A stretch of DNA of 64,000 nucleotides from positions 1 through 64,000 of the forward strand of contig JAUVXW010000021.1 of the NCBI GenBank assembly GCA_030603385.1, in the 5' to 3' direction. The translations under genes were made by a program, and so were the position numbers. The notes under the pieces were generated by a model. It was not told the DNA's origin, ran no database searches, and saw only the letters and a program-made list of their open reading frames with translations. Position 1 is the first letter of the stretch, and every line of letters begins with the position of its first letter. The stretch comes from Promethearchaeota archaeon (lineage in GTDB: Archaea; Asgardarchaeota; Lokiarchaeia; Sigyniarchaeales; SOKP01). Positions 46,769 to 49,271 of this stretch are shown here, one piece after another.

Positions 46769-47033
46769 TTAAAAAATCTTAACCCTATAATAGTTTTATA
46801 GTAAGTGATAATGAATGATTAAAATCAAGAATCTATTGTTTAAAATATTAATGCAAAATTTTACTTAAATTATTATAAAACAAAAAATATTCCCTACTTT
46901 AAAAGAAGGGCAAGAGAGCAAAGTCTTAAACTATTACATTTTTTTAATGGGATTTGTCGACAGATTCATTGATTATAGAAAATTTTAATTTGGATTTTAA
47001 TTACATAGTCCTTAAGACGATAAAATTATAACT

Positions 47034-47702
47034 ATGAAAAGAAAAAATATTAAAGCACCAGTCAAACATGAAAAGGAAACTTCATCAAAAAGAAAGATTG
47101 TTGTAACAATAATTTTACTTGGTGTTGCTTTTTCTGGAGCTTTTATAGTTTATTTTATAATGCAAATCGCATTAAATACAAAAACACCAATGGTTGTCGT
47201 TGTTTCAGGTTCTATGGAACCTAACCTACATAGAGGAGATTTGTTATTTTTAAGAGGGAAAGATGCTGATAATATAAAAAATGGTACAATCGAAGGAAAA
47301 GAAGGGGATATTATTGTTTTTAATGCACGTGGATTATGGGTTAATGCCCCTAGTGATCCGATTGTTCATCGAGTTATCGATAAGATGTATGATAATGAAT
47401 GGTTATTCTTAACAAAAGGAGATGCGAACCCTAGTGAAGATGCTGCTTGGGTTCCAGAAACAAGGATTTTGGGGGTAGTCGTAGGAAAGATCCCTTATAT
47501 AGGTTGGGTAAAAATCGTATTAACAGATTCAGGATTATTAATTCCTCTCCTTGTAATTGTCTCAGTATTACTTGTAATTAGTTTAGTTTGGGACATAGCT
47601 AAAAAGGAAGATGATGAGGAAGAAAAAAATAGTGAAAAGAAAATTTATGACGAAGCTAATATTAAAAGAGAAATTGACATTGATTTCACTAAAGATAACT
47701 AA
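47034..47702 (+). CDS. sec11: Signal peptidase I (Sec11/SipW type)
   Basis: VVVSGSMEP, GDLL, PIVHRV, LTKGDAN and GKIPYIGW motifs. Confidence 0.92.
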   Translation: MKRKNIKAPVKHEKETSSKRKIVVTIILLGVAFSGAFIVYFIMQIALNTKTPMVVVVSGSMEPNLHRGDLLFLRGKDADNIKNGTIEGKEGDIIVFNARGLWVNAPSDPIVHRVIDKMYDNEWLFLTKGDANPSEDAAWVPETRILGVVVGKIPYIGWVKIVLTDSGLLIPLLVIVSVLLVISLVWDIAKKEDDEEEKNSEKKIYDEANIKREIDIDFTKDN

Positions 47703-47803
47703 ATAGATTAGATTTATAATATATTGAGTAAAATAATATTATACTAACACTTCTATATAAAATTATTAGAACAAAGCAAATTAATAAAAGAGTTGATTAT
47801 TAA

Positions 47804-48037
47804 ATGGGATGGACACCACCAACTAAATTCACAGTTTTTATATCCTTCCTCTTGATGGCATTTGGGCTATTTATCGTAATTGACCTAGTATTTATGGCAC
47901 CAGATTTTATAATAATCCATATAGAGTTAATTATCGGAGATTTCACTCAATTTGAAACATGGGGCTTAATTGCAATAATTGTATTATTTCTATCTTGGTT
48001 TGTATTCTATCTTGGCGTAAGATTGACAGGTTTATAA
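47804..48037 (+). CDS. Small two-TM membrane protein
   Basis: 77 aa with two hydrophobic helices, followed by a T-rich terminator. Confidence 0.65.
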   Translation: MGWTPPTKFTVFISFLLMAFGLFIVIDLVFMAPDFIIIHIELIIGDFTQFETWGLIAIIVLFLSWFVFYLGVRLTGL

Positions 48038-48341
48038 ATCTTCAGATTAAATTTTCTTTTTTTCCTTTTTCTTACATTTGCCATTAATCTGATAATGAGA
48101 TTTAAATTTTTTTTTGGATAAAATCAATAGTATTCAGAATGAGTAATTGCTACAATTTATCCAAATTCTATATAAATCAGACAATAAAGTTTAAAATATT
48201 TCTAAAATTTCAAGAAAATATTATTACCGTAATTTAAAATTAAAATTACGAGAAAACTTTAATACGTAATACGGAAACGCAAAAAAGCTATATTAAATAT
48301 AGATATACAATAAAAAATTAAAAACAAAAGAGGAAATAAAA

Positions 48342-48651
48342 ATGTCAAAAGACGAAAACGCTGTATTTGTCGGTCGCCGTCCAACTATGAATTATGTGAT
48401 GGCCACTATGATGATCCTTAACAAAGGTGTAGAATGTACTGTCAAAGCCCGAGGTAGAGCTATTTCTCATGCTGTTGATGTGTGTGAAATTTTAAGAAAT
48501 AGATTCTTAAAGGGTACTGAGTATAAGGATATCCAACTTAGCACTGAGCAGCTTGAGGGCGAAAAAATTATCGGAAAATCCCTTTAATTTCGCACACGGA
48601 CAAAGTAACAACGTCTCAAGCATTGAAATTACATTATCACCACCAAAATAA
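48342..48651 (+). CDS. alba: DNA/RNA-binding protein Alba, split by a 31-nt intron: join(48342..48564,48596..48651), 92 aa
   Basis: VFVGRRPTMNYV and VKARGRAISHAVDV motifs. The missing C-terminus GQSNNVSSIEITLSPPK is in the +1 frame at 48598-48651. The predicted spliced junction GAA AAC GGA gives LEGENGQSNNVSSIEITL. Confidence 0.9.
48565..48595 (+). other. Predicted bulge-helix-bulge (BHB) intron in alba mRNA
   Basis: Sequence AAATTATCGGAAAATCCCTTTAATTTCGCAC. It has a 4-bp helix GCGA/TCGC, 3-nt bulges AAA and ACA, and an intron stem AATTA/TAATT. Canonical cleavage restores the frame. Confidence 0.85.
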
Positions 48652-48725
48652 GTAATCGAATTAAGCAAAGAACTTAATTGTTCGGTATTGCGAAAAAATA
48701 ATAACAACCTTTATCTTTTTTTTTA
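48652..48725 (+). terminator. 3'-UTR hairpin followed by a T-tract after alba
   Basis: GTAATCG-AATTAAG...CTTAATT-GTTCGGTATTGC imperfect stem, then CTTTTTTTTT near 48715-48724. Confidence 0.45.
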
Positions 48726-49067
48726 TAATATTCCTACTCTTCGATAATCAAAAGGTTTAATTTGTGAATGTATAGCCTAATAGTTTAAAATCATGAAATT
48801 TATTTGTTTTCTAATAGAGCTAGAGGCACTGAAAATAGTGTATAACAAAAAGACTGCAAATTTCAGTCTAATTAGTTTTTGAGAGTTAAAATTCCACTTA
48901 TAAATTTTCCCACAAATTCAGTAGAAAAAAAGGAATTTCAAAATATTGTCCTAAAATTACAAAGATTTAATAATACAGTTGAAAAAATAATACTTAACAA
49001 ATAAATAATTTAATTCAATTTTAAACCGTATTTTAATAAAATCTTAAAAAATTAGTAAAAAAAGAGG

Positions 49068-49271
49068 ATGAGTAAGTTGGCAAAAAAGGTTGTTGAACCG
49101 TTATATGTTAAGTCCAAGATACGAGAATATATTAAAGCGCATGAATGCAATACAAGCAGCGGAGTCCTTGATGGAGAAACTTTAAATGGCATCATCATGA
49201 GCATACTTGATAAAGCTATTGCGCGAGCAAAAGGAAATAACCGAAAGACTGTAAAAGCAAGAGATTTATAA
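49068..49271 (+). CDS. Short histone-fold protein (non-HMf type, face-to-face/Bd0055-like)
   Basis: LYVKSKIREYIK...ILDKAIARAKGNNRKTVKARDL with an RKTV..RD terminus and truncated alpha3. Confidence 0.8.
   Translation: MSKLAKKVVEPLYVKSKIREYIKAHECNTSSGVLDGETLNGIIMSILDKAIARAKGNNRKTVKARDL

What the first reader, a model, noticed from the sequence alone, without database searches (positions are those of the whole stretch)
48551..48651. Canonical bulge-helix-bulge intron inside the alba protein-coding gene of an Asgard archaeon
SEEN: the alba ORF stops early (...LEGEKIIGKSL*, TAA 48585-87), while the conserved Alba C-terminal strand GQSNNVSSIEITLSPPK* sits in the +1 frame at 48598-48651. The intervening RNA folds as a textbook BHB. 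The central 4-bp helix is G48559-C-G-A48562 paired with U48590-C-G-C48593. The 3-nt bulges are AAA (48563-65) and ACA (48594-96). The intron stem is AAUUA (48566-70)/UAAUU (48585-89), capped by GGA-AAA-UCC. The exon side closes with G48558-C48597 plus GCUUGAG (48551-57)/CUCAAGC (48615-21). KNOWN: archaeal tRNA-splicing endonuclease (EndA) cuts after the 2nd nucleotide of each bulge and RtcB ligates. Applying that rule removes exactly 48565-48595 (31 nt, 3n+1), deletes the stop and gives GAA-AAC-GGA (E-N-G), a normal 92-aa Alba. The standard precedent for archaeal mRNA introns is crenarchaeal cbf5; I am not aware of one in alba or in Lokiarchaeia, but cannot search. INFERENCE: EndA/RtcB-dependent mRNA splicing controls a chromatin protein in a eukaryote-related lineage, comparable in logic to non-spliceosomal HAC1/XBP1 splicing. 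Such introns would be misannotated as frameshifts.
Basis: partly seen in the sequence, partly recalled or inferred. Interest (0 to 1): 0.95.

Follow-up and report, generated by a model that had tools for sequence, protein, structure and literature searches.

The report
tRNA-type intron splitting Lokiarchaeial alba
One of the genes for the chromatin/RNA-binding protein Alba in this cold-seep Lokiarchaeial (Asgard) archaeon is interrupted by a 31-base intron of the kind normally cut out of tRNAs. At least three other protein genes of the same genome carry similar mini-introns, a kind of mRNA splicing that the papers I could search describe inside the coding sequence of only one archaeal gene (cbf5).

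Summary
Alba exon 1 (48342-48564) and exon 2 (48596-48651) are separated by 31 nt that fold into a 4-bp helix flanked by two 3-nt bulges. Cutting after the second nucleotide of each bulge gives a 92-aa Alba ending LEGENGQSNNVSSIEITLSPPK, the sequence of most intron-less homologues.

- **Other alleles.** Six independent alleles carry 29-, 30- or 31-nt inserts at the same site. The same cutting rule restores the frame in all of them.
- **Covariation.** The hairpin shows compensatory changes, and the exon codons that pair with the intron (GGC, AAC) track intron presence.
- **Selection.** Exon 2 stays under purifying selection.
- **Enzymes.** The genome encodes an alpha/beta pair of splicing-endonuclease subunits and RtcB.
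- **Polymorphism.** A 95.7%-identical contig lacks the intron.
- **RNA evidence.** One metatranscriptome contig joins the exons at that junction and carries the intron-associated exon flank. This is suggestive only.

The intron is rare: 2 of 80 species representatives. It is not special to alba. By comparison with intron-less orthologues I confirmed similar introns in the mutase small-subunit, iorB and histone genes of this genome.

An intact alba paralogue exists.

Earlier notes of this scan report alba introns on other DNA (Woesearchaeota, Jordarchaeia). I found none in print.

The parts
48330..48333 (+). GAGG ribosome-binding-like motif 8 nt before the alba ATG
   Evidence: read
48342..48564 (+). 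alba exon 1 (74 codons plus the first base of the Asn75 codon)
   Evidence: ORF; Pfam Alba 1-65/66, E 1e-15; 74 residues 86-99% identical to 92-aa Albas
48551..48557 (+). GCUUGAG, 5' strand of a long-range exon-exon helix (partner 48615-48621)
   Evidence: 7/7 pairs here and in L023, only 4-6/7 in the other intron alleles. Four synonymous changes relative to the 95.7%-identical intron-less contig L134 create it.
48558..48558 (+). G of the closing exon-exon pair G48558-C48597
   Evidence: GC in 6/6 alleles
48559..48562 (+). GCGA, 5' (exon) strand of the central 4-bp helix
   Evidence: pairs with 48590-48593
48563..48565 (+). 5' bulge AAA; predicted cut between 48564 and 48565
   Evidence: Cutting rule (between bulge nt 2 and 3) from PMC2738675; frame restoration
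48565..48595 (+). 31-nt BHB intron, containing the in-frame TAA at 48585-87
48566..48589 (+). intron hairpin (inner helix h' 48566-70/48585-89, internal loop, GG/CC cap)
   Evidence: 92.6% of cells paired across 6 alleles; 4 pairs with changes on both sides
48590..48593 (+). UCGC, 3' (intron) strand of the central helix
   Evidence: In L006 the exon has GGAG and the intron CUCU, a compensating change.
48594..48596 (+). 3' bulge ACA; predicted cut between 48595 and 48596
   Evidence: the joint 48564->48596 is seen in an RNA-library contig
48596..48651 (+). alba exon 2 (last two bases of Asn75, 17 codons, TAA stop)
   Evidence: pN/pS 0.16 at pS 0.73 among intron-bearing alleles; aligns with the C-terminal end of solved Albas
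48615..48621 (+). CUCAAGC, 3' strand of the long-range exon-exon helix

Best explanation
The 31 nt at 48565-48595 are a genuine bulge-helix-bulge (tRNA-type) intron in the alba pre-mRNA.

Inferred mechanism:
1. The transcript folds so that the exon bases GCGA pair with the intron bases UCGC, with a 3-nt bulge on each strand and an intron hairpin beyond.
2. The heteromeric (alpha-beta)2 splicing endonuclease encoded on contigs C44 and C9 cuts between the second and third nucleotide of each bulge.
3. RtcB (contig C39) joins the exons. The mRNA then reads GAA-AAC-GGA and yields a complete 92-aa Alba.
4. Unspliced RNA would give an 81-aa protein that lacks the last beta-strand.

The intron is one member of a population of 28-31-nt BHB introns in protein-coding genes of this Lokiarchaeial genus. 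These introns are gained or lost at the species and strain level.

Shown: the structure, covariation, frame restoration, selection on exon 2, presence of the enzyme genes, and presence/absence polymorphism.
Inferred: the cleavage and ligation themselves.
For: 1. **Exact junction.** Excision gives ...LEGENGQSNNVSSIEITLSPPK. Of the 120 listed homologues, 115 are complete intron-less Albas, and the junction octamer LEGENGQS is the commonest (47 of the 98 that fit the strictest C-terminal motif). The spliced-type protein aligns end to end with solved Alba structures.

2. **Six further alleles.** L005, L006, L007, L008, L023 and L082 carry inserts of 31, 30, 29, 29, 30 and 30 nt at the same site. 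These lengths differ modulo 3. In each allele the cut-after-bulge-nt-2 rule restores the frame to E-(N/S/D)-G-Q.

3. **Covariation.**
   - 94% of cells are paired, against 27-44% when the partner is slid.
   - 4 pairs changed on both sides.
   - RNAalifold finds the same helices on its own.

4. **Exon-intron co-adaptation.**
   - Gly73 = GGC together with Asn75 = AAC occurs in 5/6 intron-bearing alleles against 1/76 intron-less ones (Fisher 1.3e-6).
   - L006 uses GGA with a compensating change in the intron.

5. **Selection on exon 2.** pN/pS is 0.16 at saturating pS of 0.73 among intron-bearing alleles, like the intron-less ones (0.11). Exon 2 is therefore translated in the post-splicing frame.

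6. **Enzymes.** There are two EndA paralogues. One has the Tyr/His/Lys catalytic residues; the other lacks the His. There is one RtcB. Asgard archaea are reported to have (alpha-beta)2 EndA with broad specificity (PMC5829648).

7. **Same class of intron in other genes of this genome**, each checked against intron-less orthologues:
   - mutase small subunit: 3/14 loci carry it;
   - iorB: 5/14 loci carry it;
   - histone: among the 16 fetched loci only the own gene carries it; the other 15 are continuous.

8. **RNA library contig.** A 295-nt contig from RNA run X15 (depth 570) joins 48564 to 48596. Its last 30 exon-1 bases differ from the window at no more than 1 position. Intron-less alleles differ there at 7-8 positions.
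Against: - **No direct proof of splicing for this allele.**
  - The X15 contig differs from the window at 13 positions, so it comes from a relative whose DNA I could not inspect.
  - It could be an allele that lost the intron precisely, or DNA carried in an RNA library.
  - No circular intron or cleavage data are available.
- **Register ambiguity.** The thermodynamic folds prefer a 5-bp register, which would not restore the frame.
- **Weak outer helix.** It is only 1 bp plus a distant 7-bp helix that is not conserved in all alleles.
- **Non-independence.** The codon association is not corrected for relatedness.
Confidence: 0.87

Rival explanations
1. The intron is real and also acts as a regulatory switch. 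Conditional splicing, or a competing fold, would set the level of functional Alba, as in HAC1/XBP1.
For: - Unspliced mRNA would end in a truncated 81-aa product.
- An alternative register of the helix exists.
- Alba binds RNA (established knowledge), so autoregulation is conceivable.
Against: - 77 of 80 species representatives, and a 95.7%-identical strain, have the gene without the intron.
- Only 1 other genome of 150 in the class carries it.
- An intact paralogue exists on C44.
- Equivalent introns sit in metabolic genes of the same genome.
- The alternative register is just slippage in an A-run.
Confidence: 0.08
2. The insert is an inactivating insertion. This alba copy would be a pseudogene or make only a truncated protein, with the C44 paralogue covering the function.
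For: - A stop codon lies in the insert.
- An intact paralogue is present.
- Splicing has not been shown directly for this allele.
Against: - Exon 2 is under purifying selection across deeply diverged intron-bearing alleles.
- The BHB pairing is kept by compensatory changes.
- Exon synonymous sites are adapted to pair with the intron.
- Insert lengths of 29, 30 and 31 nt all restore the frame under one rule.
Confidence: 0.03
3. Assembly artefact, or translational bypassing or frameshifting rather than RNA splicing.
For: Per PMC2738675, cbf5 introns were once mistaken for translational frameshifts, so the two readings can be confused.
Against: - Seven independent assemblies from different studies carry inserts at this site.
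- I saw no matching take-off and landing codons.
- The 30-nt alleles contain in-frame stops.
- The conserved feature is the BHB geometry.
Confidence: 0.02

Closest known systems
BHB intron in the cbf5 (pseudouridine synthase) pre-mRNA of Crenarchaeota (Watanabe 2002; Yoshinari 2006; Yokobori 2009, PMC2738675)
   Same: - A short intron inside a coding sequence.
- A relaxed BHB motif, with predicted cuts between bulge nucleotides 2 and 3.
- A host with hetero-oligomeric EndA.
- A patchy gain/loss pattern among relatives.
- A risk of annotation as a frameshift.
   Different: - The gene differs (alba) and so does the lineage (Lokiarchaeia, Asgard).
- cbf5 of this genome is uninterrupted.
- Here several unrelated genes of one genome carry such introns.
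- Intron presence is polymorphic at about 96% DNA identity.
- There is no cDNA proof yet.
BHB intron in the 5' UTR of HVO_1309 mRNA, Haloferax volcanii (PMC7714728)
   Same: It is an mRNA substrate of the archaeal splicing endonuclease outside tRNA and rRNA.
   Different: That intron lies in the untranslated leader and was verified in vivo and in vitro. This one interrupts the reading frame and is so far inferred.
Archaeal pre-tRNA BHB introns (EndA + RtcB pathway)
   Same: It has the same structural motif and presumably uses the same enzymes. ARAGORN finds intron-containing tRNAs in this genome (7 of 18 detected).
   Different: The substrate is an mRNA. The exon strand of the helix is constrained by codons, and selection is visible at synonymous sites.
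HAC1/XBP1 unconventional mRNA splicing (IRE1 + tRNA ligase/RtcB)
   Same: It is non-spliceosomal. It removes a short intron that changes the C-terminal reading frame, and ligation is by a tRNA ligase.
   Different: That system uses a different nuclease (IRE1, stress-activated) and is a documented regulatory switch. No sensor or conditionality is evident here.

Membership tests
Archaeal bulge-helix-bulge intron (EndA substrate) | Two 3-nt bulges on opposite strands separated by a 4-bp helix | tested here: met
   48559-62/48590-93 with bulges 48563-65 and 48594-96. The helix is 95.8% paired across 6 alleles. A one-base register slip is equally stable.
Archaeal bulge-helix-bulge intron (EndA substrate) | Flanking helices h (exon-exon) and h' (intron) of the strict hBHBh' form | tested here: inconclusive
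   h' is present and covarying. h is a single G-C pair plus a discontinuous 7-bp helix that is perfect only in the window and L023. The best description is a relaxed (HBh'-like) motif.
Archaeal bulge-helix-bulge intron (EndA substrate) | Cleavage between bulge nt 2 and 3 yields a functional joined RNA | tested here: met
   The frame and the consensus junction are restored in 7 alleles with introns of 29, 30 and 31 nt. This is an in-silico test only.
Archaeal bulge-helix-bulge intron (EndA substrate) | Host encodes a splicing endonuclease able to cut relaxed motifs, and an RtcB ligase | tested here: met
   Two EndA paralogues, alpha-like and beta-like, 33% identical. RtcB E 1e-167. (alpha-beta)2 type with the L1 loop is reported for Asgard archaea (PMC5829648).
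Archaeal bulge-helix-bulge intron (EndA substrate) | Spliced RNA and excised (often circular) intron observed | tested here: inconclusive
   One RNA-library contig joins 48564->48596 with the intron-associated flank, but it comes from a relative. Circular introns cannot be assessed from contigs.
Regulated unconventional mRNA splicing (HAC1/XBP1-like) | Splicing is conditional and coupled to a sensor | not testable with these tools
   No expression series is available. The distribution argues against an essential switch.

The most novel reading that the evidence does not exclude
Lokiarchaeial genomes may hold a dynamic population of 28-31-nt BHB introns in ordinary protein-coding genes. At least alba, a histone, iorB and a B12-mutase subunit carry them in this genome.

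These introns come and go between species and even strains. They arrive with, or select for, a short tract of co-adapted exon sequence.

This would amount to a mobile, endonuclease-spliced mRNA intron system, with an unknown insertion mechanism, in the closest prokaryotic relatives of eukaryotes.
Probability: 0.6. Interest if true: 0.85.

Novelty: new member of a known kind. Interest (0 to 1): 0.68.

Why it matters
- **Rarity in print.** In the papers I could search, archaeal mRNA splicing by the tRNA machinery rests on one coding-sequence case (cbf5) and one 5'-UTR case.
- **What this adds.** A well-supported alba intron, together with introns in histone, iorB and mutase genes of the same Asgard genome, suggests protein-gene introns are a regular feature of at least one Lokiarchaeial genus.
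- **Annotation.** These genes are called truncated or frameshifted.
- **Intron gain and loss.** Presence/absence at 96% identity, with a co-varying exon tract, gives a tractable system for studying it.
- **Eukaryote origins.** It adds a data point to discussions of RNA processing in the lineage related to eukaryotes.
- **What it does not show.** It does not show regulation of chromatin.

Tried and rejected
- **Metagenome pattern scans.** Two patterns built on the intron and its flanks found nothing, or one chance hit (L089, not alba).
- **Covariance model R1.** Across 151 genomes of the class, the weak hits L095-L097 are chance matches in unrelated genes.
- **Genome-wide count of introns.** BHB geometry plus ORF merging has no discriminating power. 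Counts are the same when the 3' cut is shifted by 1-4 nt. I therefore give no genome-wide number.
- **blastn-short of the seven intron sequences against the genome.** I inspected only the start of the output, which held the window intron's hits. Those show no related copies.
- **RNA runs.** Nothing from X17 or X20 was laid on the stretch, and X19 gave only a fragment of an intron-less-type allele. These are not evidence either way.
- **The X15 contig.** I first read it as an L039-type intron-less allele. I revised this after counting flank mismatches.
- **'Stops inside' alba matches in another Asgard family.** These lie at the N-terminus (a start-codon issue) and are not introns.
- **Rfam.** No family matches around the gene.
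- **Gene tree.** It is too weakly resolved to decide between one origin with many losses and several gains.

Full report
**Observation.**
- The alba ORF starts at ATG 48342 behind a GAGG motif and stops at TAA 48585-87 after ...LEGEKIIGKSL (81 aa).
- Its first 67 residues cover the Pfam Alba model 1-65 of 66 (E 1e-15).
- The missing C-terminal strand GQSNNVSSIEITLSPPK lies in the +1 frame.
- G48559-A48562 pairs with U48590-C48593.
- AAA (48563-65) and ACA (48594-96) are 3-nt bulges on opposite strands.
- 48566-70 pairs with 48585-89, and G48558 pairs with C48597.
- Deleting 48565-48595 (31 nt) gives a 92-aa protein.

Three qualifications apply.
- The minimum-energy fold of the single sequence is only mildly better than shuffles (z -1.8). 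It slides the 5' bulge by one A, which makes a 5-bp helix.
- The exon-exon helix next to the motif is a single base pair. The 7-bp GCUUGAG/CUCAAGC helix lies 17 nt away.
- BHB-like geometry by itself is frequent in this AT-rich genome: 16,698 candidates in 7.8 Mb of both strands under the 6-of-7 inner-pair rule.

The case therefore rests on what follows, not on the fold.

**The junction is the natural one.**
- A search with exon 1 returned 404 homologues. Of the 120 listed, 115 are complete intron-less Albas, mostly of 92 aa.
- Under the strictest C-terminal motif, 98 of the 120 fit it. In 47 of these the eight residues across the predicted junction read LEGENGQS, exactly the predicted spliced sequence.
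- P0002 is identical to the predicted product except for one residue. It aligns from residue 5 to 89 with solved Alba structures such as 1NFH.
- From the known Alba fold, the intron falls in the turn before the last strand.

**Other alleles carry an intron at the same site.**
- Four of the listed homologues end abnormally right after LEGE/IEGE.
  - Their contigs (L005, L006, L007, L008) have inserts of 31, 30, 29 and 29 nt.
  - L005 also carries a 19-nt tandem duplication just upstream of the insert, which I removed before the frame check.
- Among 80 species-representative Promethearchaeota genomes, 77 are intron-less and 2 (L023, L082) carry 30-nt inserts. One locus is cut short by the end of its contig, but it is already continuous across the insertion site.
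- In all seven alleles, cutting after the second nucleotide of each bulge restores the frame. This is the rule stated for cbf5 in PMC2738675.
- The restored junction reads E-(N/S/D)-G-Q, although the intron lengths differ modulo 3.
- The 30-nt introns carry in-frame stops.

**Structure is conserved by compensation.**
- On an alignment of six alleles, the BHB structure has 94% of cells paired, against 27-44% when the 3' partners are slid by 1-3 columns.
- Four inner-helix pairs changed on both sides. The covariation score was reached by 1 of 500 shuffles.
- RNAalifold recovers the same helices without my input, with the one-base register slip.
- L006 has GGAG in the exon and CUCU in the intron, where the others have GGCG/(U)CGC(C). 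This is an exon-intron compensation.

**Exon sequence is adapted to the intron.**
- Gly73 is GGC and Asn75 is AAC in 5 of 6 intron-bearing alleles but in 1 of 76 intron-less ones, which mostly use GGA and AAT. Fisher's p is 1.3e-6, not corrected for relatedness.
- These are the bases that form C48560-G48592 and G48558-C48597.
- The single intron-less exception (L068) is the sister of the intron-bearing L005 in the gene tree.
- Contig L134 is colinear with the window and 95.7% identical over 2,083 nt, but it lacks the intron.
  - 10 of the 13 differences inside alba lie within 20 nt of the insertion site.
  - All 10 are synonymous.
  - Together they create GGC, AAC and the perfect GCUUGAG/CUCAAGC helix.
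- This pattern fits either selection for RNA pairing or a short co-conversion tract that travelled with the intron. Both imply a functional, evolving element and a recent gain or loss.

**Exon 2 is translated.**
Among intron-bearing alleles, exon 2 has pS 0.73 and pN 0.11 (pN/pS 0.16). This is close to the intron-less alleles (0.11). Without removal of the insert that frame cannot be reached.

**The machinery is present.**
- The genome has two tRNA-intron-endonuclease genes of about 200 aa, 33% identical.
  - One keeps the Tyr/His/Lys catalytic residues.
  - The other has the His replaced. This is my reading of the alignment and ORFs.
- It also has one RtcB.
- Kaneta et al. (PMC5829648) report that Asgard archaea have the (alpha-beta)2 enzyme with the L1 loop. 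[quoted passage not shown]

**RNA evidence.**
I laid four metatranscriptome runs, which are held as contigs, on the stretch.
- In X15, a 295-nt contig at depth 570 covers 48320-48564 and continues at 48596-48630. It skips exactly the 31 nt.
- It has 13 mismatches to the window, so it comes from a relative. At first I dismissed it.
- Recounting gave a different picture.
  - The ten listed exon-1 mismatches all lie more than 30 nt from the joint and match an L039-like allele.
  - Within the last 30 nt of exon 1 there is at most one mismatch to the window.
  - Intron-less alleles L039 and L134 differ there at 7-8 positions.
  - None of the other 83 DNA alleles I hold fits that flank.
- So an RNA-library molecule joins the exons at the predicted point and carries the intron-associated flank.
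- This is suggestive of a spliced transcript. An allele that lost the intron precisely, or DNA in the library, would look the same.

**Distribution.**
- The intron is rare and scattered.
  - 2 of 80 species representatives carry it.
  - 1 other genome of 150 sampled in the class carries it, and it belongs to the same genus.
  - Among the listed matches, which include every close alba orthologue in a 250-genome sample of the phylum, none other than the window's own is cut off at residue 75. A further 237 weaker matches were not shown.
- On the alba gene tree the intron-bearing alleles need 5 changes. Only the window and L023 are sisters.
- The tree is too weak to choose between one old origin with many losses and repeated gains.

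**Context in the same genome.**
Earlier first-stage notes on this genome listed candidate BHB introns in other genes. I recovered four with my own scan and tested three against orthologues from the genus.

| Gene | Position | Length | Restored sequence | Loci of the genus carrying it |
|---|---|---|---|---|
| Methylmalonyl-CoA-mutase-type small subunit | C26:94206-94233 | 28 nt | KPGL\|DGHDRGAKV | 3 of 14 |
| iorB | C46:6068-6098 | 31 nt | FGSE\|MHGLAQRE | 5 of 14 |
| Histone | C6:1296-1325 | 30 nt | HAGRK\|KLTLGDMD | own gene only among the 16 fetched; the other 15 are continuous |

- The inner hairpins differ between carriers.
- cbf5, the classical host of such an intron, is uninterrupted here.
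- An intact alba paralogue lies on C44.

**Interpretation.**
- The best-supported reading is a real BHB intron removed by EndA and RtcB.
- It is one of several such introns in protein-coding genes of this genus.
  - The intron is dispensable in nearly all relatives.
  - A paralogue is intact.
  - The same kind of intron sits in metabolic genes.

**Literature.**
- Six full-text searches found only cbf5 (Watanabe 2002; Yokobori 2009, PMC2738675) and the Haloferax HVO_1309 5'-UTR intron (PMC7714728). The latter states that cbf5 was the only earlier mRNA case.
- I found no report of an alba intron or of Asgard mRNA introns. The library is not complete.
- This scan has noted alba BHB introns before on other DNA (Woesearchaeota, Jordarchaeia). 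I did not test those notes.

**Verdict.**
The intron reading is supported at about 0.87. The regulatory reading is unsupported. The finding is a new member of a known kind, and its wider interest comes from the multi-gene, polymorphic intron population around it.

Noticed in passing
G000 C26:94206-94233 (locus L098/L102): A 28-nt BHB insert splits the B12-binding motif of a methylmalonyl-CoA-mutase-type small subunit (KPGL|DGHDRGAKV). Of 14 loci from the genus, 3 carry an insert at this site, with different hairpins; the rest are continuous.
   Followed up: yes
G000 C46:6068-6098 (locus L099/L116): A 31-nt BHB insert in iorB (ERVFGSE|MHGLAQRE). Of 14 loci from the genus, 5 carry inserts at the same site (one is 30 nt with in-frame stops); the others are continuous.
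   Followed up: yes
G000 C6:1296-1325 (locus L100/L138): A 30-nt BHB insert in a histone gene (HAGRK|KLTLGDMDLAMTIL). Fifteen orthologues of the genus are continuous. In G059 (C61:20837-21037) the orthologue seems to carry a different 30-nt in-frame insert with two stops.
   Followed up: partly
G000 C2:899-928 (locus L101): A 30-nt BHB-shaped insert whose removal rebuilds a CPxCG zinc-ribbon motif (FTCPK|CGAKS). I did not compare it with orthologues.
   Followed up: no
L005:1707-1745 (JGI 3300033141 contig, protein P0048): This intron-bearing alba allele has a 19-nt tandem duplication of the exon-1 end, including the 5' splice site (CAATTGGAAGGCGAAAAAA twice). Only use of the upstream 5' site (a 50-nt intron) would keep the frame. 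It could be a real variant or an assembly artefact.
   Followed up: no
L134 (JGI 3300028835 contig) versus window 46842-48924: A colinear contig, 95.7% identical, lacks the alba intron. Its differences within alba cluster in the 20 nt on each side of the insertion site. This is a strain-level presence/absence polymorphism with a co-varying exon tract.
   Followed up: yes
whole genome G000: ARAGORN finds only 18 tRNA genes, 7 with introns, in a genome estimated 94% complete. Many tRNA genes are probably disrupted in ways the program misses.
   Followed up: no
window 49068-49271 (+): A 67-aa ORF ending ...NRKTVKARDL lies about 400 nt downstream of alba on the same strand. From that ending it looks like a histone-fold gene, so two chromatin genes would be neighbours; I did not check this against a family library.
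   Followed up: no
L130-L133 (G216, G231, G196, G211; another Asgard family): The alba homologues there have a stop codon immediately before ...NILSDENTIFIGKK and no ATG/GTG/TTG nearby. This suggests a non-canonical start codon.
   Followed up: no
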